The notes under the pieces were generated by a model. It ran no database searches. It saw only the letters and a program-made list of their open reading frames with translations, and had not been told where the DNA came from. The position numbers were made by a program, and so were the translations under genes. From assembly GCA_035291905.1 (NCBI GenBank), contig DATDRF010000297.1, forward strand, positions 14 through 64,013: a stretch of 64,000 bases of DNA, written 5' to 3'. Shown piece by piece: positions 5,453-48,846 of the stretch. Position 1 is the first letter of the stretch, and each line of letters begins with the position of its first letter. This DNA is from Bacteroidota bacterium. Its GTDB lineage: Bacteria > Bacteroidota > Ignavibacteria > UBA10030.

Positions 5453-7144
5453 CTAGGGGAGCACTTCATCGCGACGTTTCAGGGCCCTAATTGTCGAACT
5501 GCGAATCTTCCGGAAGTTCTTATCCTCCCTTAGCAGGACGAGAGCCGCTATCTGCTCACCCGAGAGGATATGCGGAAGAATAACATGATCTGCCCCCTCC
5601 TCGTAGAGCTTCAGCGCCTCTTTGACTGACGTTGCGTAGACGATAACCTTCCCCTTCACGTTTCTCGCTTTCAAATACTTCAGCAAAGCCTCGTTGCTCG
5701 TTCCGCGCAAAAAATCGTCCGGCAACGTGCAAACAATCACGCTTGCGTCCTGAATTCCAATTTCTTCAAGTGCATCGAAATGGCTTATGTCGATGTATGA
5801 AGCCTTTATGTCCCGCCCTTTCAGCTTGTCAAGAACCAAAGGGTTGAAGTCCAGAACGTGAAGGAGCTCCCTTTCGGGCTCAAGTGCATCCACGATGGCG
5901 CTTCCGACTCGATGGCATCCCAGAATGAGAATCCGACCCTTTCCGTCCGTTTGGACGCTCTCCTCCTGAAAGTGGGAACTTCTGATGCCAAGCCGCTCGA
6001 ACATAGTCACCGCGAATCGGGCAAGACCATGGCTGTTCATCATCAGATACGTCGAGACGGTGGAGGTGACGACGAGCGTGATTGCGATAAGGGAAACGAT
6101 GTCACTGGAAATATGCTCGTAGCCAAGGCCGAGCGATGCAATGACAAGAGAGAACTCGCTGGATTGCGCAAGGGAGACAGACGAGAGTACTCCCACCCGC
6201 GTTCCGAGTTTCATGACATAACTGATGGGAACGATGGTTATGAATCGGCTCACGATGATGAAGCCGGAGAGAAGTAATCCGGTGACAACAATCGACATGG
6301 AAGTGACGGTAATCTGCATGCCGAGCGAAACGAAAAACAGCGTGACGAAGAAATCGCGGAGTGATCGGATCTTTGCAATAACATCGTGACTGTAGGGAAA
6401 CGTGGAGATACTGACGCCTGCGATCAAGGCACCCATCGCGATGGAGAAGTTCGCCTGCAGGGCCAAGCCGCACATGACTGAGCACCATGCCATCGAGAGG
6501 ATCAAAACCATTTCGGGGTTTCTTGCCACCCGCTTAAAGGCGGCCGGCAGTACATAACGGCTGACCAGAAAGCTGACGAGAACCAAAGCGATACCCTGTA
6601 CTATTGAGAACACGACAGGGATAATCGACGGGTTGTTGATGTTTCCCTGGCCGGCAAGAACAAAAATAGCCAAGACGTCCTGAATAAGAAGGATACCGAG
6701 GGTAGCACGTCCCGGGAGCGTGTCCAATTCGCCGCGGTCGCTCAGCAGCTTTACGACGATCATCGTGCTGCTGAACGAGAGAGCAACGCCAAGATATATT
6801 GCATCAAGGTCATGAAATCCAAGTGATACCGCGACGGCATATCCGAGAACAGAACACGCGACAACCTGGATGACTCCAATGACCGTTGAGGCGATTCCCG
6901 AGCGCGCGAATTTCTTCACGTCAATTTCAAGGCCCACGATGAACAGCAAGAACGCGAGTCCCAATTCCGAAAGCGTCGAAACATCATCTTGATTCTGGAC
7001 GAGCTGGAAGCCGTTCGGGCCGATCAACAAGCCGGCGGCGATGTATCCGAGGATGGGAGGTTGACGAAGGTACTGTGCGGCGTAGGCAAGAATCGATGCC
7101 GCAATAATGGCAGTGCCGATCGTCAGGAGAATGGTCGAATGCAT
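5453..7144 (-). CDS. Cation:proton antiporter (Kef/CPA2-like) with C-terminal TrkA-N (KTN) domain
   Basis: The first ~70 aa from the upstream start at 7357 show no TM or antiporter features. The antiporter core with its TM helices begins at Met72 (MHSTILLTIG...), so the true start is probably about 7144. A Rossmann-type KTN domain (GCHRVGSAIVDAL) lies near the C-terminus. Confidence 0.75.
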   Translation of the reverse strand: MHSTILLTIGTAIIAASILAYAAQYLRQPPILGYIAAGLLIGPNGFQLVQNQDDVSTLSELGLAFLLFIVGLEIDVKKFARSGIASTVIGVIQVVACSVLGYAVAVSLGFHDLDAIYLGVALSFSSTMIVVKLLSDRGELDTLPGRATLGILLIQDVLAIFVLAGQGNINNPSIIPVVFSIVQGIALVLVSFLVSRYVLPAAFKRVARNPEMVLILSMAWCSVMCGLALQANFSIAMGALIAGVSISTFPYSHDVIAKIRSLRDFFVTLFFVSLGMQITVTSMSIVVTGLLLSGFIIVSRFITIVPISYVMKLGTRVGVLSSVSLAQSSEFSLVIASLGLGYEHISSDIVSLIAITLVVTSTVSTYLMMNSHGLARFAVTMFERLGIRSSHFQEESVQTDGKGRILILGCHRVGSAIVDALEPERELLHVLDFNPLVLDKLKGRDIKASYIDISHFDALEEIGIQDASVIVCTLPDDFLRGTSNEALLKYLKARNVKGKVIVYATSVKEALKLYEEGADHVILPHILSGEQIAALVLLREDKNFRKIRSSTIRALKRRDEVLP

Positions 7145-14121: not shown

Positions 14122-17100
14122 GTGTTTTCTGCCATCATGATCTCATCCATTAAAGATCTTCTATACTCATCAGAGCCTTTCCGTAAGTTTGCAGAATCCG
14201 TCAAGGAAAGCCGAAATGCGCTTCGATTGGAAATTTCCGGCGTTAATGGGTCTTTGATGGCATTTGTTGCCGACCTTTTGGGTGAGCATTTTTCCAACGT
14301 CATCCTCGTAGTTTCGACAGATGATCGTGCGGAGCAGCTTCGGGATGATTGTGCGCTCGTTACACCGGGAAGAAAGGTGAACCTCTATGCCCACGCTGAA
14401 CACCACTCTGCCACTACCCTTGATATGAGCGGACCCGTTTCCGTGATGGAGTCTCTCCATTCGCTTGTGAGAAATGAAGCAGGCATCATGATTGCTTCGG
14501 CGGAAACGGCAGCGAGCCTGCTTCCGCCTCCCTCTGGTTTCCGCGAACGGGCCATCATACTGACATCGGAAGTTGAATACCCGTTTCAGGGTCTGGTGGA
14601 CAAGCTGGAAGAATGGAAGTTCGAGCGCAAGGACTTTGTTGAGGGGTACGGGGATTTTGCCGTCCGTGGAGGGATTCTGGATGTGTTTCCTTTTGTCGGA
14701 GAGCATCCGCTGCGGATTGAATTCTGGGGGGACAGGATCGAGTCAATACGCGAATTCGAGCCGCTTTCGCAGCGTTCCATCAGGGAGCTTCACTCTGCAA
14801 ATATCGTTGCGGGATTTCCCGATGTCGCTGATCGGGCAGACCGAACCTCGACCGTTTTTGACTACCTGCCGGCCGGCACAGTTCTCCTGGTTGAAGAGCC
14901 GGTTCTCTGCGAGCGGGAGGTTGAAGAGGTCATACTCGAGGGCGTCAAGGGCGTTGTTCGCTGGGGCGACATTCTCGAACGGAGCGCAAGGTTTCCCCGC
15001 ATAGTTCATTCAAGCCTTTCCGCTCCCGACGCGGACATTCAATTTGGCTCATCTCCCCAACCGGCATTTCACGGAAGCATCAAGCTCCTTGTTGAAGATC
15101 TCCGGCGCGAGAAGGTACGGTCGTTCAGGCAAATTATCGCCTGTGATTCCGCCGAAGAGCTCACGCGACTGCAGGACTTACTCGAAGAGGAGATCACCCG
15201 AACCGAAGAGAGTGACGGGGGGGATTGGGAGTTTCCGGAACTCAATCCCGAGGGGTTTCACGGCGGATTCGTGTTTCCTGCCGCTTCGATTGTTCTTTAT
15301 ACCGAGCACGAAACATTCGGGAGGCTTAAGAAACGCGGGACCCGAAGGCGGCCGCGGTTCCGCGGATTCAGCCAGCGGGAGGTGTATCGACTGAAGAAAG
15401 GTGATTTCGTGGTCCATGCTGATTACGGCGTGGGAAGGTTCGCTGGATTGCAGACGATCAAGGTCCGGGGGAATGATCAGGAAGTGATGAAGATACAGTA
15501 CGATGAGGATGACGTTCTCTATGTCAACCTCAATTTCGTCAACAGTGTTCAGAAATATTCGTCGCAGGAAGGTCATGAGCCGAAACTGACCAAGCTCGGC
15601 ACACCGCAGTGGGATCGCCTCAAAGCGCGCGCCCGCAAGCGCATTAAAGACATTGCACGCGGGCTGATTCGACTCTACGCCCAGAGAAAGCACGAGCCCG
15701 GGTTTGCGTTTTCCCCCGACAGCCATTGGCAGAAAGAGATGGAGGCTTCGTTCGTCTATGAGGATACTCCCGATCAGTCAACGGCGACAGAGGCGGTGAA
15801 GGCGAACATGCAGGAGGCCGTCCCCATGGACAGGCTTATCTGCGGTGATGTCGGTTTTGGCAAGACGGAGGTTGCGGTTCGGGCCGCGTTCAAAGCTGCT
15901 CTTGACGGCAAACAGACCGCCGTTCTGGTCCCCACAACGATCCTGGCGCAGCAGCACTATCAAACCTTTCTGGATCGCCTTGAACGCTATAGTGTTCGTG
16001 TTGCCTCGCTGACGCGGTTCAGAGGGAAGAAGGAACAAAAAGGCATACTCGGAGATCTTAAGGAAGGGTCTGTGGATATTGTGATCGGGACGCACCGGCT
16101 GCTGTCGAAAGACGTGGTGTTCAAGGACCTTGGGCTTCTGATTATCGATGAAGAACACCGCTTTGGCGTTACGGCAAAGGAAAAGCTTCGGCAGATGCGC
16201 GCATCGGTCGACACCCTGATGCTCACGGCAACACCGATCCCCCGGACGCTTCAGTTTTCGCTCATGGGAGCCCGGGATTTGTCGATCATCAATACGGCGC
16301 CGCGTAACCGGCTTCCGATCATCACGGAAATATGTGAATTCGATCTCGATCTTATCCGGGAGGCGATTCTCAAGGAGCTTCACAGGGGCGGGCAGGTGTA
16401 TGTGATTCATGACAGGATCCAGACAATGGATCTGGTGGTCCAACAATTGAAGACAAAGGTCCCCGAAGCGCGGTTCCATTCCGCTCACGGACAAATGAGG
16501 GGTCACGAGCTCGAAAAAACGATGATGGCGTTCCTTGAGCGCAAGTACGACGTTCTGATCTGCACAAAGATCATCGAGTCCGGCATTGACATCCCCCGTG
16601 TCAATACCATTATTATCAACCGTGCCGACCGGTTTGGCCTGGCTGAGTTGTATCAGCTGAGGGGAAGAGTAGGGCGGTCGAATGTGCAGGCGTACGCATA
16701 CCTGCTTACGCCGCCCATAGCCACCCTGCCGCGAGTTGCACTGCAGCGACTCCAGTCAGTTCAGGAGTTCACAGAGCTGGGTTCGGGGTTCAACCTTGCA
16801 TTGCGCGACATGGAAATACGTGGTGCCGGGAACCTGTTGGGGGCGGAACAGTCGGGATTCATCATGGAAATGGGATTTGAAATGTACCAGCGCGTGGTTG
16901 AAGAGGCGGTGCGGGAACTGAAAGACGAAGAATTCCAGGGGGTATTTGGCGAAGAAGGCAGACAGACGGCCACTCCTCAACCGGAGACCATTCTTGAATC
17001 GGATCTGGAAGCCCTTATCCCGGACATTTATGTCGAGTCGAGCCAGGAGCGACTTGATATCTACAGGCGACTCTACCAGGCAAAAACGTTGAACGACATT

Positions 17101-18342: not shown

Positions 18343-18396
18343 GTAAAGTCCGACACCTGCTGATGCGATGCCATCGCGGGTGTCGGATTTTTCATT
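18343..18396 (+). terminator. Rho-independent terminator (hairpin AGTCCGACACC...GGTGTCGGAttttt)
   Basis: 12-bp inverted repeat followed by a T-run, immediately after the stop of the 17490..18332 gene. Confidence 0.6.
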
Positions 18397-18782: not shown

Positions 18783-19691
18783 ATGACAACGATTCCGGCA
18801 TCAACATTCATCTGCGAAGTGAGCTTGCGGGTACGCAATCTCGAATCTGTGGCAGGTTTCTACAGAGATTCCCTGGGATTCAGGGAACTCCCGTCCAAAT
18901 CGAATGAACGGCGACTTTCGGCAAATGGCAGCGAACCCGCCCAGATTGTTCTTCTTGAGGATCGTCATGCGGCTCCGCGCCCGGGATCTGCTCCCGGTCT
19001 GTTTCACACCGCGTTTCTTTTTCCGTCCAGGCAAGCTCTCGCCTCTGTTTTGCAGCATTTGATGGACGCGAAGACTCGATTCCAAGGTTTTGCCGACCAT
19101 GGAGTGAGTGAGGCAATCTATCTGGCAGATCCCGAGGGAAACGGTGTGGAGTTGTACTGCGATCGTCCAAGATCGACCTGGCACCTTCAAAATGACGGAA
19201 TTGCCATGGTGACAGAGGCGTTGGATGTTGCAGGCCTGTTGCTGGAGCTGGAGCACGAGAAAGCGCACCAATTGGATCCCGCGACCGTCATCGGGCATCT
19301 CCACCTGCAGGTATCGAGCCTTCAGAAGGCAGAACGGTTTTATCACAAGATTCTTGGGTTTGATGTGACACAGCGATCCTATCCCGGGGCTCTCTTTGTA
19401 TCCGCGGGTGGTTACCACCATCACCTGGGTTTCAACACCTGGAACAGCAGAAACAGCATTTCGTCGCCCGGGACGAGCGGTTTAGTCTCTGCAGGCATTC
19501 AAGTACCGGACGGGAAGTCACTCGAGGATATCGCGGTGCGATTGGATCAGAACGGGATCAAGATTCAGCAGGCAGAACGCGGGAGTCTCCTTGTTCATGA
19601 TTTTGACAATATTGTCATACGTCTTTCGGTGTCGGAACAAGGTTCTTCAGGATCATTCTTTCAACAGCGCTCTCAGGAGGTCGAGTTATGA
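18783..19691 (+). CDS. Two-domain VOC (glyoxalase / extradiol dioxygenase) family protein
   Basis: Two tandem VOC modules, with metal-ligand His/Glu positions (HTAFLF..., HLHLQV...). Confidence 0.65.
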   Translation: MTTIPASTFICEVSLRVRNLESVAGFYRDSLGFRELPSKSNERRLSANGSEPAQIVLLEDRHAAPRPGSAPGLFHTAFLFPSRQALASVLQHLMDAKTRFQGFADHGVSEAIYLADPEGNGVELYCDRPRSTWHLQNDGIAMVTEALDVAGLLLELEHEKAHQLDPATVIGHLHLQVSSLQKAERFYHKILGFDVTQRSYPGALFVSAGGYHHHLGFNTWNSRNSISSPGTSGLVSAGIQVPDGKSLEDIAVRLDQNGIKIQQAERGSLLVHDFDNIVIRLSVSEQGSSGSFFQQRSQEVEL

Positions 19692-40463: not shown

Positions 40464-41420
40464 CTAATTGACAGTTTCTGATCGGGTCAGCTTGTGGAAG
40501 ATCTCCTCGAGGCTGGTGCTTTGCCGCGAGAGTTCTAGCAGCACCCAACGTTCCGAGATTGCCTGCCGGAACAGCTCCTCCCGGATATCCATCCCCTTTG
40601 CCGAATGAATGATGAACCTATGGATCGGTCCTTCGGACCCGCGGTAGTCGACGGCTTCCACATGCCGGAGGGATTTAAGTTTAGGAAAAAGATCCTGCAT
40701 GGGGTCCGGCGTTTCTGCTTTCAGTTCGACCGAGACGCTTTCCGACCCTCTGAAACTTTGTTTAAGCTCATCAGGTGTTCCGTCGGCGACAATGCTCCCT
40801 TCATTAATAATGACAACTCTGTCGCACGTTGCCTGGACCTCCGAAAGAATATGGGTGGAAAGAACAACGGTCTTCGCGCTGCCGAGACGGCGGATCAGGT
40901 TTCTGATTTCGATGATTTGGTTCGGATCGAGCCCGCTGGTTGGCTCGTCAAGGATGAGCACCTCAGGGTCATGGATCATCGATTGAGCGAGCCCGACCCT
41001 CTGCCGATAACCTTTGGAGAGCTCGCTAATGTCTTTGTGACGCACCTCCTCAAGGCCGCAAACCTCCACCATCTCGTTCTGTCGCTGTCTGAGATGCTTA
41101 TCCCGCAGCCCGTGGAGCCGGGCAGAGTACTCAAGATACTCGAGCACGTTCATGTCAAGATACAACGGATTCAACTCGGGGAGATAGCCGATCTTCCTTC
41201 GGACCTCAACAGAGTAGTCGAGCGTGCTCAGGCCGTCAACTTCAACCGAACCGGAGGATTGCGGCATATAGCATGTGATGATCTTCATCGTCGTGGTCTT
41301 CCCCGCTCCGTTCGGTCCCAGGAAGCCCAGTATCTCACCGGTCTTGACGTCGAACGAAATGTCGTTGACGGCTTTTTCGTCACCGTAAAGTTTTGTCAGA
41401 TTTCGAACGGCAATGGACAT
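40464..41420 (-). CDS. gldA: ABC transporter ATP-binding protein (GldA-like)
   Basis: Walker A GPNGAGKTT. Signature LSKGYRQRVGL. Walker B ILDEPTSGLD. Confidence 0.85.
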   Translation of the reverse strand: MSIAVRNLTKLYGDEKAVNDISFDVKTGEILGFLGPNGAGKTTTMKIITCYMPQSSGSVEVDGLSTLDYSVEVRRKIGYLPELNPLYLDMNVLEYLEYSARLHGLRDKHLRQRQNEMVEVCGLEEVRHKDISELSKGYRQRVGLAQSMIHDPEVLILDEPTSGLDPNQIIEIRNLIRRLGSAKTVVLSTHILSEVQATCDRVVIINEGSIVADGTPDELKQSFRGSESVSVELKAETPDPMQDLFPKLKSLRHVEAVDYRGSEGPIHRFIIHSAKGMDIREELFRQAISERWVLLELSRQSTSLEEIFHKLTRSETVN

Positions 41421-41653: not shown

Positions 41654-42732
41654 TCAACGCAAAGAAAGCGAGAATTGCGATTCCTGGGGACGAAGGAAGG
41701 ATTCGGTGGAAAGGCGAACAGGGGTTTCGTTCAAGCGATACTTTCGGCAACCTGCCTGAAAGAGATTCTCGATTGTATCGGCGATCGGGCCTTCGCCCTT
41801 CATTCGCTTTCCGAAGTCCGATTCGGAAAGCTTTCCCCCTCGGACGGACCGAATATGACTCACGACTTTGTTGAACTTCTCGGGGTATTCGCGCTTGAGC
41901 CACTCGAGGAAGAGATCCTTGAGTGCATAGGAAAGCCGCACCGTTGTTTGCCCCGCATGACGTGCGCCGCTTTCTGATGCCTGCCTGAGAATTTCTGGGA
42001 TCTCGCTTTCTGTCAGTCCGGGTATTATCGGTGCCACATTGACACCGACGGGAATCCCGTTCGCGGCAAGAATTTCCACTGTTTCCATGCGCTTTCGGGG
42101 AGCCGAAGCGCGCGGTTCCAGTTTTCTTGCCAGATCCTGGCGGAGCGTTGTGACGGTGATAATGACGAAGAGAAGATTGGTGGCGGCAAGTTCTTTGAGA
42201 ATATCGACGTCGCGCTGAACAAGGGCGTTCTTGGTAATGAGCGAGACCGGGTTTCGGAAGCGCAAGAATATTTCGAGGCAGCGGCGGGTGATCTTCAATG
42301 TCCGTTCCGCAGGCTGGTAGCAATCAGTATTGCCTGAAAAAACCACCGTCTGGGGTTGCCATGAAGGCTTGCTGAATTCAGCCGCAAGGAGCTCGGGTGC
42401 TTTGAGCTTCACCATGATCTTTGTCTCAAAATCGAGGCCGGAGGAGAAGCCAAGGTATTCATGTGAAGGGCGCGCGTAGCAAAGATGCAGCCGTGCTCAC
42501 AGCCTCGGTAGGGGTTGATGCTGTACGTGAAACCGATGTCGGGGCTGTCGTTTTTGGAGAGAATGGAAAGAGAGCGGTCGACATAGAAGCGCGTGGGGAC
42601 TTTTTGCCCGGGCTCGGGCAGCTCAAAGTACTCCGCCAGATCAGGAGGCGGCGATTCCACTTTGAGTGATTCAAAGCGGTTGGGAGGATTGAATCCCGCC
42701 CCGCGACCGATGAATGGGCGAGATTCACTCAT
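41654..42732 (-). pseudogene. Radical SAM 'DNA repair photolyase' (SplB-like, COG1533 family) gene disrupted by a 1-nt frameshift
   Basis: The N-terminal ORF 42409..42732 reaches ...YRGCEHGCIF and then goes out of frame. Re-inserting one T in the T-run near 42480 restores [39 protein letters not shown]..., which continues into ORF 41654..42415. The start overlaps the polB-like stop by 8 nt. Confidence 0.75.
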
Positions 42733-45031
42733 GGGGCGACGGTGCGGAAGCGAACGGTTTGGCCTGGACGCGTTGGGATCTGGTTGATTTGCGGGGTTTC
42801 AATGGAGGGGGAAGAAAGAGCTCCTTGAGGCGATCGACCGTATATCCGAATGGCGAGAGCAGCGACTCGATCGCTTTCAGTGTCAGTTCGGTGTAAAAGT
42901 CGATATCGTAGCCATCCTCAAAGGCATACAAGGCAATCGGCTTTGCCTTTTCCGGTTTTTTCTTTCCCGATTGGTCGATGAGAATGTACTCGATGGTTTC
43001 TCCGGCCGCGAGATGGACCCCCATTTCTTCAATAAGTCCCGCAACGACAGCGCTGACGCTTTTGTTGGTATATTCATTCGCCTCTTTTGTAATGTGCCGC
43101 CGCATGACAAGCTCCATCGGATTCACTTTTCCGCTTCTGAGCATTGCAACGGCGTTGCGGCCGATGTCGAGGAGCTCGGGGACCAACGTCTCTACATCGG
43201 CCGCCGTGCGCGCAGGTGCCATGCGGTCGAACATTGCCCTCTGCATGGTCTTGATGAACGGGGGAGTGTCCCGGCGGCGTGTTTCGAGTCCGCGCACTTT
43301 AAAATCGCCGTTGCGGTACCACCCTGCATACCGGTTGGCCGTCGTGATGAGGGGATCCTGCTTTGACGCCGGGAAAAGGATCCAGTTGTAAATTCCTTCC
43401 AATGAAATATCGATTCCCGTGCGTGCCGCGATCTCGCGGCATAACTCTTCATATTCCTGCTCGGAAGTGCCGGGCTTTTTCAGCCAGACGCAATCGATGA
43501 TGGCGTGAAGCATTCGGAAGCCGTGCTGCTCAGCAATCTCCTTTGCCGTTAAAATGGAGTCGCGCGAAAATGCGTTCACGGACTCGTGTGCTTCGATTCT
43601 TCCGAAACGTGCGTTCTTGTATCCGAGATATCCGAAACAGCTGACGAGCATCCATTTGAGCGCATTCTGGCGCCGGTCGTATTTACGGAACAGAGCGTCA
43701 TCCCTCCCCTTATAAAATCGTTTGAGTCTTTTATAATGAGACCGTTTTTGCACCACCGATCGAAGTGTTGCCGGGACTATTCCCTCGCGCCGTTCACAAA
43801 TGGTATACCCGAGCTCGGGGACGGCCGAGTTTGAACAGCAACGGCAATTGACCGTTTCCGGGGAAACGTTCTTTTCGACCATGATGGTGGGATACATCGA
43901 AACGAAATCGAGCTCGGCGACTTCTTCGTGGTACCCAAGAGGAGGATTGAAAATAAGACCGCCCCTGTCTGCCATCAACAATGTGGAGGCCGATTTGAAG
44001 TCTTCCGGTTCCCGTTTTTTGGACGGAATAAGGTACCGGTGGCTGTGCGCCCAAGAGAGCTGCAGGGACGACATCGATGTGCCGATGCTGACGCGGGCCT
44101 GGCGCTGAACGGGAATCTGTGTCAAACGGGCGAGCTCGAAGACTCCGTCAAGGTCGGCCTCGCCGAACGTGAAGGAGTTCTGCTCATCGAGGTGCCAGCG
44201 GCCGGCGAGCTCAAAAGCCCCGTCTTTATGGACGATTTTGCCGTACTGGAAAAAACTCGATTCCCTGGTTCGGAAATACGGTGTCTGCTCATCGCGGTTC
44301 AGGAGGAGGGGAATATTGTGACGTGCAGACAGAGCCGTCAGGTGCGGCAAAATGATCGAATCGCCGTATTCCGTCAGAACAATATCGGGGTCGCAGCGAT
44401 GAAGATGCCAGTTGAGCGTCTCCAGCACGTCACGCGGGTTCTCTTGCTCCAGCGAATATGTCTGGCCATCGTAGCTGACCTCAAGCTGTAGGTGCTTGCG
44501 ATATTTGGGAGGGACAAAGTTGTTCCCGTTTCTCAGTCGTAGCGTTGAAAGCGGCGGAACCTCGTATTCCATTGCTTCATGATGATCGTTGATGGCCCAT
44601 CCGACGAGACGGCTGCGATGATCGATTTCGTAGTCACCGTAAGCAAGAGGAAAAAGAGCCGTTTCATACAGAAACAACTGAGGGACAAGGAGATCCGAAT
44701 CAAAAAAAGCAAAGTGAGGGAAAAATTGTTCAAAGGATCGGACGACAGATGAAAAGCGGGTCGGGTTATGAACGGAAATTTGTAGAACGTCCCATGATTC
44801 ATCGGAGTACAATTCCTTGCGCGTGGTGATTGAAACAGTAAGCCGTGTGTCGCAGCGGGTGGCGAGTGTGGAGGCGCGCTTCATATCCTGCGGACTCAGG
44901 TGAAGAAAAAACGAAGGAAGAAAGGGAACGGTGCAGCGATGCTTTCTTCCTTCGCGGTCGATAAGCCACACGACCATGCCGTCTGTCGAAGGATAAGCGT
45001 CAAAGAGCCACCCCGAAACGACATTGCTCAT
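42725..45031 (-). CDS. Family B DNA polymerase paralog (E. coli Pol II-like) with degenerate 3'-5' exonuclease motifs and a degenerate polymerase motif C
   Basis: Motif A LDFVSMYPTIM aligns with Pol II LDYKSLYPSII. Motif B KWMLVSCFGYLG aligns with KIIMNAFYGVLG. NRYAGW and RGLETRRRDT align with KKRYAGL and KGLETVRTDW. N-terminal similarity to Pol II: GWLFDAYP...FLHLSP against GFILTRHW...AFIP. The exonuclease and motif C substitutions are detailed in the findings. Confidence 0.85.
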   Translation of the reverse strand: MSNVVSGWLFDAYPSTDGMVVWLIDREGRKHRCTVPFLPSFFLHLSPQDMKRASTLATRCDTRLTVSITTRKELYSDESWDVLQISVHNPTRFSSVVRSFEQFFPHFAFFDSDLLVPQLFLYETALFPLAYGDYEIDHRSRLVGWAINDHHEAMEYEVPPLSTLRLRNGNNFVPPKYRKHLQLEVSYDGQTYSLEQENPRDVLETLNWHLHRCDPDIVLTEYGDSIILPHLTALSARHNIPLLLNRDEQTPYFRTRESSFFQYGKIVHKDGAFELAGRWHLDEQNSFTFGEADLDGVFELARLTQIPVQRQARVSIGTSMSSLQLSWAHSHRYLIPSKKREPEDFKSASTLLMADRGGLIFNPPLGYHEEVAELDFVSMYPTIMVEKNVSPETVNCRCCSNSAVPELGYTICERREGIVPATLRSVVQKRSHYKRLKRFYKGRDDALFRKYDRRQNALKWMLVSCFGYLGYKNARFGRIEAHESVNAFSRDSILTAKEIAEQHGFRMLHAIIDCVWLKKPGTSEQEYEELCREIAARTGIDISLEGIYNWILFPASKQDPLITTANRYAGWYRNGDFKVRGLETRRRDTPPFIKTMQRAMFDRMAPARTAADVETLVPELLDIGRNAVAMLRSGKVNPMELVMRRHITKEANEYTNKSVSAVVAGLIEEMGVHLAAGETIEYILIDQSGKKKPEKAKPIALYAFEDGYDIDFYTELTLKAIESLLSPFGYTVDRLKELFLPPPLKPRKSTRSQRVQAKPFASAPSPHE

Positions 45032-45306
45032 GTGCGCTCCTCGGGAGCAGCAAGCGCGCCGGCCTGAACAAGCCGCCGGCGCAGTTCTTTGATGGTCTTT
45101 CCCTGCTCAATGATGATCGACATGATAATGCTCTCAAAGGGAATGGCGCGCATGGCGTAAAAGTTTGTGGCGAGATGACGCTTGGCGGCGCGGAAGACCT
45201 CATCGAAGATCTCCTGGTCCTCCAATTGCAGGCCGCGGCGGAATTTCGACCAGCCGGCGATCTCACTGTCGATGATGTTGGTGAACGTCGGTACGGTGCG
45301 TCCCAT
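45028..45306 (-). CDS. Small hypothetical protein (about 92 aa) between the imuA-like and polB-like genes
   Basis: ATG at 45306 preceded by AGGAG-N9. Its stop overlaps the polB-like start (ATGA). The longer upstream extension (TTG at 45468) would overlap the imuA-like gene by 206 nt and is disfavoured. Confidence 0.4.
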   Translation of the reverse strand: MGRTVPTFTNIIDSEIAGWSKFRRGLQLEDQEIFDEVFRAAKRHLATNFYAMRAIPFESIIMSIIIEQGKTIKELRRRLVQAGALAAPEERT

Positions 45307-45991
45307 GATTGTTTTCTCCTTTCGGTGATAGAAGAGATGAAGGTTGAGGCTCAAGTTGAACGGCATAGTGATGGTGTTCATCCTCTTCGAGGCGATAGAC
45401 ACGATCCACGGATGATGTGAGTGTCTGAGAGAGGCCGTTACGCTCTTCGGGCCAGACGGTCCGGTCAACGGATGCGATGAGAACGGAAATGCCGCGCTGC
45501 TTCATTTCTTGGAGGGCAATGAGAACGCGGCCGAGAATCTGGCGGACCTCACGCAGCGGCGCCTGCTCGTCGTACAGTGTTTCGAGCGGATTAAAGATCA
45601 TAGCGGTGGTGGCGCCTTTGGCGGCAAGAAAAGCGGGGAGGCGCCGTGTGAGCGCCTGCTCCATCTGGTAGCAGGTGAATCCGCGGGAGATGAAGATGCG
45701 GTTGAGCAGTTGTGCGGGGTCGATCCGATGTTCCCGGGCAAAGCGGGAGATCAGGTGGACGTTGAAACAGTTCCCGCCGTCAACGACGGCGATGGAGGAG
45801 CCGTTGGCCAGAGCAACGGAGGCCATGGTGAGGGAAAGTGTGAAGACGGCGCTGTCACCGTGCAGCAGGTACACCTTTCCGGGCGGGTGGGTGAAGGCAT
45901 GAATGAGGTTCTCAGAAGAGCGGATTATTGCCGTGTCTGTGTCTGCGGCAGGGGATAGTAACTGACGGGCTTGAACTGGAAATGGGGGCAC
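45263..45991 (-). CDS. ImuA/SulA-like protein (RecA-fold with degenerate P-loop)
   Basis: RecA-like topology without a canonical Walker A: GKVYLLHGDSAVFTLSLTMASVALANGSSIAVVDGGNCFNVHLISRFAREHRIDPAQLL..., then TAMIFNPLETLY. The ORF-track TTG start at 46018 falls inside the predicted -10 hexamer, so the in-frame GTG at 45991 is proposed as the start. Confidence 0.55.
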   Translation of the reverse strand: MPPFPVQARQLLSPAADTDTAIIRSSENLIHAFTHPPGKVYLLHGDSAVFTLSLTMASVALANGSSIAVVDGGNCFNVHLISRFAREHRIDPAQLLNRIFISRGFTCYQMEQALTRRLPAFLAAKGATTAMIFNPLETLYDEQAPLREVRQILGRVLIALQEMKQRGISVLIASVDRTVWPEERNGLSQTLTSSVDRVYRLEEDEHHHYAVQLEPQPSSLLSPKGENNHGTHRTDVHQHHRQ

Positions 45992-46014
45992 GGTTCCGGC
46001 TTTCTCTTGCCGGA

Positions 46015-46044
46015 ACAATATGACATTTTTGTCGTATTGTCAAG
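46015..46044 (-). promoter_or_regulatory. Sigma70-like promoter (TTGACA-N17-TATTGT on the minus strand) overlapped by a 26-bp near-perfect palindromic operator candidate
   Basis: Plus strand 46015..46040 reads ACAATATGACA-tttt-TGTCGTATTGT, with arms matching 10 of 11. On the minus strand the -35 TTGACA is at 46043..46038 and the -10 TATTGT at 46020..46015, separated by a 17-nt spacer. Confidence 0.4.
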
Positions 46045-46107
46045 AAATGAAAACGACAATTATGTCGCTTCACTCACAGTGAAGAAGTCCCTTCTAGGCC
46101 AAAAACC

Positions 46108-46180
46108 TAAAGTCCGACATCTGCTGTGTTGGTTGGGAGCTTTAGTTCCCCGCCAACCGCGGTTGATGTCGGACTTTTAA
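46108..46180 (-). terminator. Bidirectional rho-independent terminator (13-bp perfect stem AAAGTCCGACATC / GATGTCGGACTTT)
   Basis: Long hairpin followed by T-runs on both strands, downstream of the cyclase gene that ends at 46214. Confidence 0.55.
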
Positions 46181-46213
46181 CATGAGCCCGAAGTCGGACT
46201 GCTTCCTGCTTGC

Positions 46214-46999
46214 CTACAATATTGCCACAATCCGCAGCGGCCCGCCGCTGCCGCCTTTGATCTTCATTGGCAAAGCGATGACCGTGAACCCTTTCTCGGG
46301 TAACCGCTCCAGGTTGGCCACATTCTCAAATGCCGGAACACTCCGTTCGAAAAGAGCGACGTGTGTCTCGAAGCGCGACGATTGGCCATAGTCAATACTC
46401 GGAGTATCCAATCCTACCGCCTTGACCTTCCGTTCATCAGCCAGCCATTTTGCCGTTTCCGGATGAAGCCCCGGGAAGTGAAGTTTTGCAACACCGTCGG
46501 CTCCTCGTTGATCTGTCCCCATGTACTGTACCCGATCCGGCCAATATTTTCCGAATCCGGTTCTCAACAGAACGATTGCCCCCTCGGGAATTCTGCCGTT
46601 GGATCTTTCCCATTCCTCACAATCCGATTTCTGAATCAGGTAATCGCTGTTCTCCGAACAATGTTGGGAGACATCGATAACGATCCCCGTGCCTACGAGC
46701 CTTTCCAGAGGAATCTGATCGACCGTCCAGCCTCCCTCGTAGAAGTGAATCGGCGCATCGATGTGCGTACCGCCGTGCTCGGGAGTCCAGAATCTGTTCG
46801 CCGTATAGAAATATCCTCCCGGAGTTATTCCTTCCGTCCCCTTTTCGAACGCGAATCCTTTCTCCGTCGGCCAATAAATAGTGGTGGAATCGTACGCATA
46901 GGAAAGATCAACAATATTTTCCGCTGTGAATGAGAAGGGTTCGCGGCGTTCACATCCCGCCATCAGCACAAACATCATTGCAAGAATCATTGTCTTCAT
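46214..46999 (-). CDS. Cyclase family protein (kynurenine formamidase-like metal hydrolase), secreted
   Basis: HxGTHxDxPxH motif (PEHGGTHIDAPIHF). Signal peptide or lipobox (LMAGC). Confidence 0.75.
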   Translation of the reverse strand: MKTMILAMMFVLMAGCERREPFSFTAENIVDLSYAYDSTTIYWPTEKGFAFEKGTEGITPGGYFYTANRFWTPEHGGTHIDAPIHFYEGGWTVDQIPLERLVGTGIVIDVSQHCSENSDYLIQKSDCEEWERSNGRIPEGAIVLLRTGFGKYWPDRVQYMGTDQRGADGVAKLHFPGLHPETAKWLADERKVKAVGLDTPSIDYGQSSRFETHVALFERSVPAFENVANLERLPEKGFTVIALPMKIKGGSGGPLRIVAIL

Positions 47000-47010
47000 G
47001 ATATCTCCTC

Positions 47011-48846
47011 CTACCTCATGACTGAGACTTTGATATGTGAGGGATACTGTCGGGAGCGATAGACTCTCTGTGTTGCTTTCTGGAAATCCGATTCCTTCGC
47101 TTTGAAGATATTCTCAACGTATTTTTGCGGATTCCGGTCAATGATGGGAAACCACGTACTCTGAACCTGCACCATGATCTTGTGTCCCTTCAAAAAGCGA
47201 TAATCCTGTTGATGCAGATCGATGGTGAATTCCGTCGCCTGATCAGGGACAAGCGGCTCGGGATGCTCATAGCTCTTTCGATATCGTGCGCGAAAGACCT
47301 CATTGGCAACCATGAACTGATATCCACCCATGGAATGTTTCTTCGGGTAAGATTCGGGATACACATCGATCAACTTGACGATCCAATCGCAATCTGTTCC
47401 GGACGTTGAAGCAAAGAGCTTTGCGACGATATCTCCTGTGATGACGACATCCTCGTTCAGCGCCTCTGTTTCCCAGCTAAGGACATCCGGCCGAAGATGG
47501 ACGAAACGCTGGTCCTGGGTGAGCCAGGTATACCACCGCGAGCCGCGGCCGTAGGTCGGCTCAATGGGCCTTGGCCTGTAGGGGACAGGGTGCGCCGGAT
47601 CCGACACATACTCGTCGTACACCTCCTCGCTACGCTCCGGAGGCGGATCAAACGAAAGCCGTCCATCCCCATGGAAATAGAGGTTCATTTGGGTGAAATG
47701 GGTGCGCGGCGGCCACATGTCGTACGACATCCAACGGTTCATGCCTGTCTGGAATGTGTGTGCTTCCGGCATTGTAAAAGAGCCTTTATCCTTAAGGAAA
47801 TAGGCAAACCAAGGGGCCTGAATGTTTGCACGGAAGTACAGACTCGGAGCGGTGCTGTCGAATTCGACGTTTCCCAGATTGTCTCCTCTTCTTCCAGACC
47901 ACCCACCATGATTCCATGGACCGACGACAAGAAAATTCTTGTTCTCCGCGTCGTGTTTCTCAAGTTCTGCATAGATTTTCAGCGGGCCGTAGAAATCCTC
48001 CTGATCCCACCACCCCGCAACATTGAGAGTGGGAACCGTGACCCTGTTGAGGTGCGGAACTGCCGTCTGGTCCTTCCAGAACTGATCATAGTCGGGGTGA
48101 TTGACGTAATCGTTCCAGGTTGGAATCTTGTCGTGGAAGTATTTTGCGTTGACGTTGGACAAAGCACCCAGATTCAAATACCATTCGTATGTGTCGTACT
48201 TGTCAAAAACGAAAGCCGTATCTCCCCTGGATGCTTCGAGGGAAAACGCATACTCGAAGCCGTAGCTCAGCCGAAACGCCCCGTTGTGGTGAAAATCGTC
48301 GCCGATCCACATATCGACCGGTGAAGCCTGAGGAGAAACCGCCTTCAGCGCGGGATGCGGATCAAGCATCGACATGACGGTCAACCATCCGTCGTAGGAA
48401 ATACCCAGCTGGCCTACTCGTCCGTTGTTTCGAGGGACGTTCTTCAAGAGCCATTCAATGCTGTCATAGGTGTCGGTGCTCTCGTCAATTCCTTTGGGGT
48501 TCTTTCTTGGGTTTCTTTGCATGACAAACGTCCCCTCCGATTTGTATCGGCCCCGTATGTCCTGGAATACAAAGATGTATCTCTCTTCTGCCAACTCACG
48601 GAGGTAACCATCGAGCCGCCTTGCAGAATTGGTGACGTTATAGGGGGTGCGCAGGAGTATGAAGGGGAGCCGATCTGTTACGTCCTTTGGGGAGTAGATT
48701 TCGGTAAAGAGTCGGAACCCGTCTCTCGCTGTGATCCAGGCCTCGGTCCGGACGTACGAGTCGGAAGGATTGACCTGAGCTTGCGCGGGAAGGATGGGTG
48801 AAAAGAGAACCAGGAAAGCAGGAACAAAGACTGATCGTTTATTCAT
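47011..48846 (-). CDS. CocE/NonD family hydrolase (S15 X-Pro dipeptidyl-peptidase-like), secreted
   Basis: Signal peptide. An alpha/beta-hydrolase N-domain whose nucleophile region GISYDGWLT carries Asp where the S15 GxSYxG serine is expected; whether the nucleophile is intact is left open. A C-terminal beta-sandwich is typical of CocE/NonD. Confidence 0.8.
   Translation of the reverse strand: MNKRSVFVPAFLVLFSPILPAQAQVNPSDSYVRTEAWITARDGFRLFTEIYSPKDVTDRLPFILLRTPYNVTNSARRLDGYLRELAEERYIFVFQDIRGRYKSEGTFVMQRNPRKNPKGIDESTDTYDSIEWLLKNVPRNNGRVGQLGISYDGWLTVMSMLDPHPALKAVSPQASPVDMWIGDDFHHNGAFRLSYGFEYAFSLEASRGDTAFVFDKYDTYEWYLNLGALSNVNAKYFHDKIPTWNDYVNHPDYDQFWKDQTAVPHLNRVTVPTLNVAGWWDQEDFYGPLKIYAELEKHDAENKNFLVVGPWNHGGWSGRRGDNLGNVEFDSTAPSLYFRANIQAPWFAYFLKDKGSFTMPEAHTFQTGMNRWMSYDMWPPRTHFTQMNLYFHGDGRLSFDPPPERSEEVYDEYVSDPAHPVPYRPRPIEPTYGRGSRWYTWLTQDQRFVHLRPDVLSWETEALNEDVVITGDIVAKLFASTSGTDCDWIVKLIDVYPESYPKKHSMGGYQFMVANEVFRARYRKSYEHPEPLVPDQATEFTIDLHQQDYRFLKGHKIMVQVQSTWFPIIDRNPQKYVENIFKAKESDFQKATQRVYRSRQYPSHIKVSVMR

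What the first reader, a model, noticed from the sequence alone, without database searches (positions are those of the whole stretch)
46015..46085. Palindromic operator embedded in the TTGACA-N17-TATTGT promoter of the cassette
The plus strand carries the palindrome ACAATATGACA tttt TGTCGTATTGT. On the operon (minus) strand it lies exactly across the spacer of a near-consensus sigma70 promoter. This is the geometry expected for a repressor that occludes RNA polymerase, such as a LexA-like SOS regulator, although the sequence differs from the known LexA boxes I can recall.

Further upstream lie a second related element (ACGACAATTATGTCG, 46053..46067) and a 7-bp hairpin CTTCACTcacAGTGAAG (46068..46084).

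The ORF-track TTG start codon at 46018 sits inside the -10 hexamer. The real start is therefore probably the in-frame GTG at 45991, which would leave a leader of about 17 nt.
Basis: seen in the sequence. Interest (0 to 1): 0.65.

Follow-up and report, generated by a model that had tools for sequence, protein, structure and literature searches.

The report
SOS-type operator pair on PolB2 promoter
The palindrome is one of two conserved repressor-binding sites on the promoter of a DNA-damage polymerase operon, and comparison with about 170 related loci points to a phage-CI-like, self-cleaving "LexA substitute" as the binder, with a recognition sequence I found described in no paper for this bacterial group.

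Summary
On the minus strand, TTGACA (46043-46038)-N17-TATTGT (46020-46015) carries a palindrome in its spacer, and a second copy lies 33 bp upstream. Both are instances of a 20-bp operator with consensus ATACGACAAA|TTTGTCGTAT and core GACA-W4-TGTC. They score 29.0 and 27.2 of 31.1 bits.

The operator heads the orthologous operon in 56 of 80 related loci. The geometry TTGACA-N4-operator-N1-TAnnnT is invariant wherever the layout is found, and sites occur almost nowhere else in 817 kb.

The operon is the published iRadA-PPB2-PolB2 "mutasome" cassette plus a frameshifted SplB-like radical SAM gene.

The likely binder is not canonical LexA. It is a 216-aa protein with a 434/P22-type HTH and an S24 peptidase domain:
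- Its gene lies next to the operator in 32 of 33 loci that encode it, against 0 of 11 loci that encode canonical LexA (p = 1.6e-9).
- It carries the operator at its own promoter in at least 70 of 80 repressor-centred loci.

The window itself encodes no such repressor, so it must act in trans.

The GTG start at 45991 is supported. Whether recA, uvrA and similar genes share the operator could not be tested.

Verdict: a real, LexA-like SOS operator of a new sequence type on a known cassette.

The parts
46018..46037 (-). Proximal operator (O-prox): 20-bp site with core GACAAAAATGTC at 46022-46033. It fills the promoter spacer, about -25 to -14 if the transcription start is near 46008.
   Evidence: PWM score 29.0 of 31.1 bits. 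The same position relative to -35 and -10 is found in 99 related loci. Invariant in the nearest relatives.
46051..46070 (-). Distal operator (O-dist): core GACATAATTGTC at 46055-46066, centred 33 bp upstream of O-prox and immediately upstream of the -35.
   Evidence: PWM score 27.2 bits. Paired sites 31-33 bp apart occur in 50 related cases. The conserved block in close relatives begins exactly here.
46038..46043 (-). -35 hexamer TTGACA
   Evidence: Promoter scan. TTGACA accounts for 96 of the 100 matches to this layout in the 99 related loci.
46015..46020 (-). -10 hexamer TATTGT, 17-nt spacer; its first bases overlap the operator flank (GTCaTAT).
   Evidence: Promoter scan. TATTGT is the commonest -10 at this position in related loci, and all fit TAnnnT.
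45989..45991 (-). GTG start codon of the iRadA gene. The leader is about 17 nt if the transcription start is near 46008; the start site is inferred, not mapped.
   Evidence: Aligns with the ATG of MPPF... in P0002-P0011. Homologs are called at 242-244 aa. ATG occupies the same column in L286-L288.
45263..45991 (-). iRadA gene (242 aa): a RadA/Rad51-fold protein with no Walker A GKT motif; first gene of the regulated operon.
   Evidence: No Pfam hit. The profile hits RadA/Rad51 at E = 1.4e-4. AlphaFold model with core pLDDT about 90. Foldseek top hits are RadA/DMC1/RAD51 at E about 1e-10. Named iRadA in PMC11791011.
45028..45306 (-). PPB2 gene (92 aa, DUF8156). The ATG at 45306 follows AAGGAG and overlaps the end of the iRadA gene.
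   Evidence: Translation. 91-92-aa DUF8156 genes sit in the same position in L081, L083 and L286-288. PPB2 is described in PMC11791011.
42725..45031 (-). PolB2-type family B DNA polymerase gene (768 aa)
   Evidence: PF00136 at E = 3.5e-34. Best NCBIfam matches are archaeal-type B polymerases, all below their curated cutoffs. The operon order iRadA-PPB2-PolB2 matches PMC11791011.
41654..42732 (-). SplB-like radical SAM gene (PA0069 family), last gene of the operon. It is broken by a 1-nt frameshift near 42481-42484.
   Evidence: NCBIfam NF033668 matches are split over two ORFs. tblastn shows a frame change at 42481 inside the CxxxCxxC motif. The gene is intact in relatives.

Best explanation
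The two palindromes are tandem operators for a dimeric, phage-CI-like repressor with an N-terminal HTH_3 domain and a C-terminal S24 self-cleaving peptidase domain. In this clade of Ignavibacteria-type Bacteroidota it does the job of LexA for the iRadA-PPB2-PolB2(-SplB) damage-tolerance operon.

Shown by comparison:
- The operators and their fixed placement relative to -35 and -10 are conserved.
- The operator co-occurs with the repressor gene, including at that gene's own promoter.

Inferred mechanism:
- A dimer on O-prox, inside the 17-nt spacer, blocks RNA polymerase.
- A second dimer on O-dist, three helical turns upstream and abutting the -35, binds cooperatively and tightens repression.
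- After DNA damage, RecA-ssDNA filaments stimulate self-cleavage of the repressor between its two domains, and the operon is derepressed.
- In this window the repressor gene is not adjacent, so it must act in trans from elsewhere in the genome, as stand-alone copies do in related genomes.
For: 1. Conservation. The exact core occurs 94 times in 817 kb of orthologous loci, all at operon heads or at the repressor gene. 56 of 80 loci carry a site scoring at least 20 bits. The geometry is rigid in 99 loci. Close relatives show a footprint that starts at O-dist.

2. Link to the repressor.
- HTH_3 + Peptidase_S24 genes lie divergent from, or at the head of, the operon.
- 32 of 33 loci with this gene have the operator, against 0 of 11 loci with canonical LexA (Fisher p = 1.6e-9).
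- In 80 repressor-centred metagenome loci the operator lies upstream of the repressor gene in at least 70. About 15 of these repressors are not next to the cassette. L082 shows the same arrangement.

3. LexA-like chemistry. The C-terminal domain aligns to E. coli LexA across the cleavage-site Gly, the Ser and the Lys. These are invariant in 34 aligned members, and the GNSM and TVKR motifs are kept in 113 of 120.

4. SOS context.
- dinB, DUF72 and SRAP genes sit in or beside the same operator-headed operons.
- Canonical lexA takes the equivalent position in sister lineages.
- A GAAC-N4-GTTC box occupies the same spacer in L071.
- The literature reports that PolB2 operons are damage-inducible and that lexA is enriched in their neighbourhoods (PMC11791011).

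5. Precedents. An XRE-type HTH (ComR) reads GACANNNNTGTC. Three phage contigs carry the paired sites directly upstream of distant HTH-S24 genes.
Against: - There is no experimental evidence of any kind: no binding, cleavage, induction or transcription-start data.
- The window encodes no repressor. For this genome the trans-acting factor is therefore assumed.
- The cleavage-site P1 residue is Gly in 99 of 120 family members and Ala in only 18. RecA-stimulated cleavage is plausible but less certain than for an Ala-Gly site.
- No recA, uvrA or similar promoter could be examined. 'SOS regulator' may overstate what could be a small dedicated regulon.
- In DUF72-SRAP-type loci the operator is 2-2.7 kb from iRadA with an antisense SRAP gene in between. 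Control of PolB2 there would need read-through or another promoter.
- Paired GACA-W4-TGTC sites are common in phage contigs that have no S24 gene nearby. The core alone does not identify the binder.
Confidence: 0.78

Rival explanations
1. The palindromes are boxes for a canonical winged-helix LexA encoded elsewhere in the genome. On this reading the neighbouring HTH_3-S24 gene in relatives is merely a co-regulated passenger, for example a UmuD-like or prophage-derived gene.
For: LexA motifs are known to vary widely between clades (PMC8565304). The cassette sits next to canonical lexA in 11 related loci.
Against: None of the 11 canonical-LexA loci has the motif; those lexA promoters carry a different palindrome, CATAGTA-N10-TACTATG. 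The motif tracks the HTH_3-S24 gene even where that gene stands alone, away from the cassette. No canonical LexA was found in any motif-bearing locus or in the window.
Confidence: 0.06
2. The HTH_3-S24 protein is the binder, but it is a local, dedicated regulator of a mini-regulon: itself, DUF72, dinB and the PolB2 operon. This would resemble UmuDAb or HdiR rather than the organism's global SOS repressor. Induction may not depend on RecA-stimulated cleavage.
For: Across roughly 1.6 Mb of fetched flanking DNA, strong sites occur only at these operons and at the repressor gene. Most family members have Gly-Gly rather than Ala-Gly at the cleavage site. The extra core matches in the window are intragenic and weak.
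Against: The fetched DNA was chosen around the cassette and the repressor, so it says little about recA, uvrA or recN promoters elsewhere. The invariant Ser/Lys dyad argues that cleavage is retained. The gene replaces canonical lexA positionally.
Confidence: 0.3
3. The palindromes act as RNA or DNA hairpins rather than protein-binding sites. For instance, the distal one followed by TTTT could serve as the terminator of the upstream cyclase gene.
For: The terminator scan flags GAAGCGACATAATTGTCGTTTT. The upstream spacer is highly structured (z = -6.4).
Against: Conservation is at the sequence level. GACA and TGTC are invariant, and there are no compensatory changes. Placement is fixed relative to -35 and -10, whatever gene lies upstream. 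O-prox lies upstream of any plausible transcription start. No Rfam family matches.
Confidence: 0.03
4. The region is part of a prophage or other mobile element, and the sites are operators of a resident phage CI repressor unrelated to host DNA-damage control.
For: Paired GACA-W4-TGTC sites are abundant in viral contigs (at least 120 stretches). Some have the same -35/operator/-10 layout. The repressor's HTH resembles those of the 434 and P22 C2 repressors.
Against: The cassette lies in conserved chromosomal synteny (ABC transporter ... cyclase, peptidase S15) across many MAGs. No phage genes flank it. The regulated genes are DNA-damage tolerance genes. Only 3 of 120 viral loci encode even a distant homolog of the repressor.
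Confidence: 0.03

Closest known systems
Non-canonical LexA of the Bacteroidetes (Sanchez-Osuna et al. 2021, PMC8565304)
   Same: - A chromosomal phage-CI-like HTH + S24 peptidase repressor.
- Fixed-spacer palindromic operators, often in pairs.
- Autoregulated.
- Controls translesion polymerases, splB and SRAP genes.
- Found in the same superphylum.
   Different: - The operator differs: GACA-W4-TGTC, against CTAA-N5-TTAG, GGA-N5-TCC and TTAC-N5-GTAA.
- Identity is only 35% over 91 residues of the S24 domain, no closer than to E. coli LexA.
- The extra C-terminal helix of the Bacteroidetes proteins is missing.
- That paper does not mention Ignavibacteria.
Canonical LexA/SOS box (E. coli CTGT-N8-ACAG; Gram-positive GAAC-N4-GTTC)
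   Same: - The operator overlaps the promoter.
- Tandem boxes and autoregulation.
- An S24 domain with the cleavage-site Gly, the Ser and the Lys.
- Controls damage-tolerance polymerases.
- The orthologous cassette in L071 carries GAAC-N4-GTTC in the same spacer.
   Different: - The DNA-binding domain is a 434/P22-type HTH_3, not a winged helix.
- The motif is different.
- P1 of the cleavage site is mostly Gly.
LexA/ImuA-ImuB-DnaE2 and UmuDC SOS mutagenesis cassettes; PolB2 mutasome (Timinskas et al. 2025, PMC11791011)
   Same: - The regulated genes are the published iRadA-PPB2-PolB2 operon.
- The same accessory neighbours are present (lexA-type gene, SRAP, DUF72).
- Some loci have the repressor as first gene of the operon, as in lexA-imuA-imuB-dnaE2.
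   Different: - That paper reports only gene-neighbourhood enrichment of lexA and defines no operator or promoter (the word 'promoter' does not occur in its text).
- Here the cis-element is defined, and the neighbouring 'lexA' is shown to be of two different types.
Lambda/434/P22 CI-type repressors and HdiR of Lactococcus
   Same: - HTH_3 + S24 architecture.
- Dimers on tandem palindromic operators that overlap a promoter.
- Cooperative pairs and RecA-dependent inactivation.
- Three phage contigs have the same core directly upstream of distant homologs.
   Different: - The gene is chromosomal, in conserved synteny, and controls host DNA-damage genes rather than a lytic switch.
- Operator spacing is 31-33 bp centre to centre.
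ComR box of streptococci (GACANNNNTGTC)
   Same: The core sequence is identical and is read by an XRE-type HTH. It sits about 24 nt upstream of a -10 element (bioRxiv 10.1101/2024.10.01.616031).
   Different: From my own knowledge: ComR is a peptide-pheromone-dependent activator of the RNPP/Rgg family with no S24 domain, and it has no role in DNA damage. The resemblance shows only that HTH_3 domains can read this sequence.

Membership tests
LexA-type SOS operator (functional class) | Palindromic or repeat site overlapping the promoter of a DNA-damage gene | tested here: met
   O-prox fills the TTGACA-N17-TATTGT spacer. The downstream genes are iRadA-PPB2-PolB2-SplB.
LexA-type SOS operator (functional class) | Site conserved at orthologous promoters across species | tested here: met
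   56 of 80 loci carry a site. The geometry is invariant. Close relatives show a footprint.
LexA-type SOS operator (functional class) | The same site lies at the repressor's own promoter (autoregulation) | tested here: met
   Sites lie upstream of the HTH-S24 gene in at least 70 of 80 repressor-centred loci and in L057 and L082. This was seen in relatives only, not in the window.
LexA-type SOS operator (functional class) | Site present at core SOS genes (recA, uvrA, recN...) genome-wide | not testable with these tools
   Only 64 kb of this genome and +/-6-10 kb around cassette and repressor genes could be fetched. dinB is under the operator in 3 loci. No recA was found in any fetched DNA.
LexA-type SOS operator (functional class) | Derepression on DNA damage through RecA-stimulated self-cleavage of the repressor | not testable with these tools
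   Sequence supports only the potential: invariant P1' Gly, Ser and Lys. P1 is Gly in 99 of 120 members and Ala in 18.
Canonical LexA (COG1974) regulon | Regulator has the LexA winged-helix N-terminal domain | tested here: not met
   The N-terminus matches HTH_3 and Phage_CI_repr and the 434 and P22 C2 repressors. Loci with canonical LexA lack the motif (0 of 11).
Bacteroidetes non-canonical LexA family (PMC8565304) | CI-like multi-helical HTH plus S24 domain, chromosomal, autoregulated | tested here: met
Bacteroidetes non-canonical LexA family (PMC8565304) | Binds CTAA-N5-TTAG or GGA-N5-TCC (5-nt spacer dyads) | tested here: not met
   The operator is GACA-W4-TGTC with a 4-nt spacer. Neither published motif was seen on reading the cassette and repressor promoters, but no formal scan for them was run.
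Bacteroidetes non-canonical LexA family (PMC8565304) | Additional C-terminal alpha-helix after the S24 domain; membership of the same clade | tested here: not met
   The protein ends right after the S24 core and has no counterpart of the ...DLSLDKLSSIVLDLQKEVQKLKK tail. Identity to WP_025606010.1 is 35% over 91 residues. No phylogeny was made.
iRadA-PPB2-PolB2 mutasome operon (PMC11791011) | Gene order iRadA-PPB2-PolB2; iRadA has a RadA fold with an inactivated ATPase site | tested here: met
   Gene order. RadA fold. The Walker A position reads LHGDSAVFTLS with no GKT. PPB2 corresponds to DUF8156 in orthologs. Inactivation of the PolB2 exonuclease domain was not checked.

The most novel reading that the evidence does not exclude
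A large clade of Ignavibacteria-type Bacteroidota has replaced canonical LexA with an independently recruited, phage-CI-derived HTH_3-S24 repressor. Its operator (ATACGACAAA|TTTGTCGTAT, core GACA-W4-TGTC) has not been described for them.

This repressor-operator pair would be the damage-inducible switch of the horizontally acquired archaeal PolB2 mutasome. That would make it:
- a third independent takeover of SOS control by a phage-type repressor, after the Streptococcaceae/HdiR and the Bacteroidetes cases;
- the first defined cis-regulatory element for a bacterial PolB2 mutasome.
Probability: 0.55. Interest if true: 0.6.

Novelty: new variant of a known kind. Interest (0 to 1): 0.55.

Why it matters
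- **A concrete switch for the PolB2 mutasome.** So far this complex has been inferred only from gene neighbourhoods and structure models. The finding supplies a defined promoter, two operators and a candidate repressor, so damage-inducibility in bacteria can be tested directly with a reporter, EMSA or a cleavage assay.
- **A new recognition motif and regulator lineage.** This adds to the known diversity of SOS repressors. It also offers a natural comparison, because sister lineages keep the same operon under canonical LexA with different boxes. That is useful for studying how regulons are rewired after a repressor is replaced.
- **Better annotation.** A position weight matrix for this site would allow regulon prediction in Ignavibacteria MAGs, where the repressor is currently labelled inconsistently as 'LexA' or 'XRE family'.

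Tried and rejected
1. **Defence-system or mobile-element reading of the cassette.** PADLOC gave only spurious weak hits. The synteny is chromosomal.

2. **My first guess that ORF1 and ORF2 are ImuA and ImuB-C.** I replaced this with the published iRadA/PPB2 assignment after the RadA profile and fold hits and the literature.

3. **My first reading of a '252-aa unknown gene' between DUF72 and ORF1 in L010.** It is really an antisense SRAP gene.

4. **Extra core matches in the window** at 17023 (inside mfd), 19605 and 40812 as regulon members. They are intragenic, and the only one with a PWM score of at least 12 is 19605 at 17.8 bits. I treat them as probably non-functional.

5. **A paired-operator scan for unbiased regulon discovery.** The viral collection returned at least 120 phage stretches, so the pattern is not specific enough. 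I used the single metagenome scan on the repressor gene instead.

6. **Looking for recA in the fetched DNA** so that recA promoters could be tested. None was present.

7. **Known RNA families in the intergenic region.** None was found.

8. **Literature searches** for the motif, for an Ignavibacteria LexA and for DUF8156. There was no prior description, apart from the unrelated ComR box.

Full report
**1. The observation**

The + strand at 46015-46040 reads ACAATATGACA-tttt-TGTCGTATTGT. On the minus strand this lies between TTGACA (46043-46038) and TATTGT (46020-46015). That pair has a 17-nt spacer, matches 10 of 12 consensus positions, and is the best sigma-70-like site in 44500-47500.

Both elements share the core GACA-N4-TGTC, with centres 33 bp apart. 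In the window the core occurs 5 times against 0.84 expected. That is suggestive but not decisive on its own.

**2. What is downstream**

The minus-strand operon is as follows:
- A 242-aa protein with no Pfam hit (45263-45991).
- A 92-aa protein (45028-45306).
- A 768-aa family B DNA polymerase (42725-45031).
- A PA0069-family (SplB-like) radical SAM gene, split into two ORFs.

The first protein is a RadA/Rad51-fold protein. Its family profile hits RadA at E = 1.4e-4. The AlphaFold model has a core pLDDT of about 90. The top Foldseek hits are RadA, DMC1 and RAD51 at E about 1e-10. The protein has no Walker A GKT motif.

The literature identifies this as the iRadA-PPB2-PolB2 'mutasome' operon. 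It is thought to have been transferred once from archaea to bacteria. Its neighbourhoods are reported to be enriched in lexA, SRAP and DUF72 genes (PMC11791011; PMC12926913). That paper describes no operator or promoter.

**3. Cross-genome footprint**

ORF1 homologs are uncharacterised proteins from Ignavibacteria and Bacteroidota MAGs. I fetched 80 genome loci around them.

- The exact core GACA[AT]4TGTC occurs 94 times in these 817 kb. My estimate of the chance expectation is below 1.
- All but one hit lie at the head of the operon. The exception (L057:9268) lies immediately upstream of that locus's repressor gene.
- The sites give a perfectly palindromic 20-bp consensus, ATACGACAAATTTGTCGTAT.
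- The window's sites score 29.0 and 27.2 of a maximum 31.1 bits.
- The layout 'distal site - T-rich stretch - TTGACA - N4 - proximal site - N1 - TAnnnT' recurs with an invariant 17-nt spacer in 42 cassette loci and 57 repressor loci.
- Successive cores are 31-33 bp apart in 50 cases, or about 98 or 109 bp apart where two divergent promoters are served.

Among the window's nearest relatives (75-80% ORF1 identity), everything upstream of the distal site is unalignable. From the distal site to the start codon, the sequence is nearly identical.

**4. Who binds**

In both main architectures a gene for an HTH_3/Phage_CI_repr + Peptidase_S24 protein of about 216 aa lies next to the operators. It is present in 33 of the 80 loci.

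- 32 of those 33 loci carry the operator.
- 11 loci instead encode a full-length canonical LexA (36-39% identical to E. coli LexA), and none of them carries it (Fisher p = 1.6e-9).
- Of the 36 loci with neither gene in range, 24 carry the operator. The window resembles these.

I then fetched 80 metagenome loci centred on the repressor gene. The operator lies about 30-200 nt upstream of the repressor gene in at least 70 of them. This includes about 15 loci where the repressor is not next to the cassette. Almost no sites occur elsewhere within +/-8 kb.

Stand-alone repressor promoters read TTGACA-N17-TAnnnT. A strong operator follows directly after the -10, and a weaker site lies about 32 bp further downstream. 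This is the signature of autoregulation.

The repressor's domains compare as follows:
- The C-terminal domain aligns with E. coli LexA across the cleavage site (VPAG against VAAG), the nucleophile Ser (GNSM against GMSM) and the general-base Lys (TVKRIK against TVKRLK).
- The N-terminal domain matches the 434 and P22 C2 repressors.
- The P1' Gly, the Ser and the Lys are invariant in 34 aligned members.
- The P1 residue is Gly in 99 of 120 members and Ala in 18. This is a caveat for cleavability.

**5. SOS context**

The operator always heads the operon. The architectures found include the following, where * marks an operator:
- '* (*) iRadA PPB2 PolB (rSAM)', as in the window.
- 'S24< * * iRadA...'.
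- 'S24< * * DUF72 (SRAP<) iRadA...'.
- 'S24< * * DUF72 dinB iRadA...'.
- '* S24> iRadA...'.

Lineages with canonical LexA show 'lexA> DUF72 (SRAP<) iRadA...' and use a different palindrome at the lexA promoter. In a Latescibacterota locus the cassette promoter reads TTGACAaatGAACAaatgTTCActaaaTTGTAG. That is a classical GAAC-N4-GTTC LexA box in the same spacer position.

So the cassette is under SOS-type control in several lineages, and the operator differs according to the repressor present.

**6. The window's own situation**

No S24 or LexA homolog is encoded in the 64 kb. Syntenic relatives carry extra genes between iRadA and the cyclase gene:
- More distant relatives carry an SRAP-DUF72-repressor(-PCMT) block.
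- The closest relatives carry a small GIY-YIG gene.

The window has only a 130-nt, highly structured spacer there. The near-perfect operators argue that a repressor is still present elsewhere in the genome, as in L082-type genomes. This is inference.

**7.

- The GTG at 45991 is supported. Eight close homologs start with ATG at the aligned position (MPPF... against VPPF...). No other canonical start codon lies between the promoter and the invariant residues F33/G38/K39.
- The 7-bp hairpin at 46068-46084 falls in the non-conserved region. It is probably part of the spacer's terminator-like or REP-like structure.

**8. Comparison with known systems**

- Bacteroidetes non-canonical LexA proteins have the same domain logic. 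They bind CTAA-N5-TTAG or GGA-N5-TCC and carry an extra C-terminal helix. They share only 35% identity over 91 residues with this repressor.
- Balneolaeota LexA binds a direct repeat.
- I found no paper on an Ignavibacteria LexA or on this motif. The one exception is the streptococcal ComR box, GACANNNNTGTC, which is read by an unrelated XRE-type activator.
- Paired GACA-W4-TGTC sites are also frequent in phage contigs. Three of those contigs have a distant HTH-S24 gene directly downstream of the pair. This fits a phage origin for this class of repressor and operator.

**9. Limits**

Nothing here is experimental. The breadth of the regulon (recA, uvrA and so on) could not be tested. The transcription start site is inferred from the -10. 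In DUF72-SRAP-type loci, the path from the operator to PolB2 is unclear.

**Verdict**

This is a real, strongly conserved pair of repressor operators of LexA-like function on a known damage-tolerance operon. Neither the operator sequence nor the repressor lineage appears in the literature I could search.

Noticed in passing
window 41654-42732 (frameshift near 42481-42484): The SplB-like PA0069-family radical SAM gene at the end of the operon is split by a 1-nt frameshift inside its CxxxCxxC motif (CIF|ATRALH in one frame, ...CYARPSHEYLG in the next). It looks like a T missing from a T-run. The gene is intact (357-381 aa) in relatives. This is either a pseudogene or an assembly error.
   Followed up: partly
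window 46085-46213; also 18345-18391; L288 about 5830-5920: A very stable long hairpin (13-bp perfect arms AAAGTCCGACATC/GATGTCGGACTTT, plus a third partial copy at 46190-46200; z = -6.4) fills the gap between the cyclase stop codon and the distal operator. A related inverted repeat follows another gene's end at 18345-18391. A similar AGTCCGAC repeat sits at the equivalent place in relative L288. It looks like a REP-like or terminator-like repeat family.
   Followed up: partly
window 45993-46016: An inverted repeat, GTTCCGGC-N8-GCCGGAAC, lies between the -10 and the GTG start. It is conserved in the three nearest relatives, two of which differ only by C-to-T changes that would keep G-U pairing. 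If transcription starts near 46008, the 5' arm would not be transcribed, so its role (mRNA stem, or a third protein site) is unexplained. More distant loci (L037, L038) have a different inverted repeat, CCTCCTTG/CAAGGAGG, at the same place.
   Followed up: partly
window 46000-46214, compared with L286-L288 and L081/L083-L085: The nearest relatives have a 105-112-aa GIY-YIG gene between the cyclase gene and the operators. More distant syntenic relatives have SRAP-DUF72-repressor(-PCMT) there. The window has neither, which suggests gene loss or rearrangement at this junction.
   Followed up: partly
window 17023-17034, 19605-19616, 40812-40823: Three further GACA-N4-TGTC matches: inside the mfd gene, at the end of a glyoxalase-family gene about 80 nt upstream of yceI (PWM 17.8 bits), and inside an ABC ATPase gene (non-AT spacer). 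Two extra AT-spacer matches in 64 kb is more than I would expect by chance (my estimate), but none looks like a promoter site.
   Followed up: partly
viral loci L086-L205: At least 120 phage contigs carry paired GACA-W4-TGTC sites. Many form iteron-like arrays (cgatcGGACAAAAATGTCCgatc roughly every 33 bp, up to 7 copies). Some have the same distal site/-35/proximal site/-10 layout as the window (L113, L139, L148). What binds them is unknown in most cases.
   Followed up: partly
L024, L027, L039, L042, L046, L052, L074, L077, L078 (lexA promoters); L071:5900-5945: Sister lineages with canonical LexA carry a conserved palindrome, CATAGTA-N10-TACTATG, just downstream of a TTGACA/TATATT lexA promoter. 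This may be another undescribed LexA box. The Latescibacterota locus uses GAAC-N4-GTTC in the cassette promoter.
   Followed up: no
L010, L083-type loci (e.g. L083:9800-9930): Where the repressor gene is divergent from DUF72, a second promoter (TTGACA-N17-TATCTT) points toward the repressor gene from the far side of the operators. The two oppositely oriented promoters overlap and share both operators. The iRadA operon then lies beyond an antisense SRAP gene, so how it is transcribed there is unclear.
   Followed up: no
repressor family P0121-P0240: The presumed self-cleavage site is Gly-Gly in 99 of 120 members and Ala-Gly in 18, while the Ser and Lys motifs are kept in 113 of 120. Whether Gly-Gly members cleave efficiently is an open question.
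   Followed up: partly
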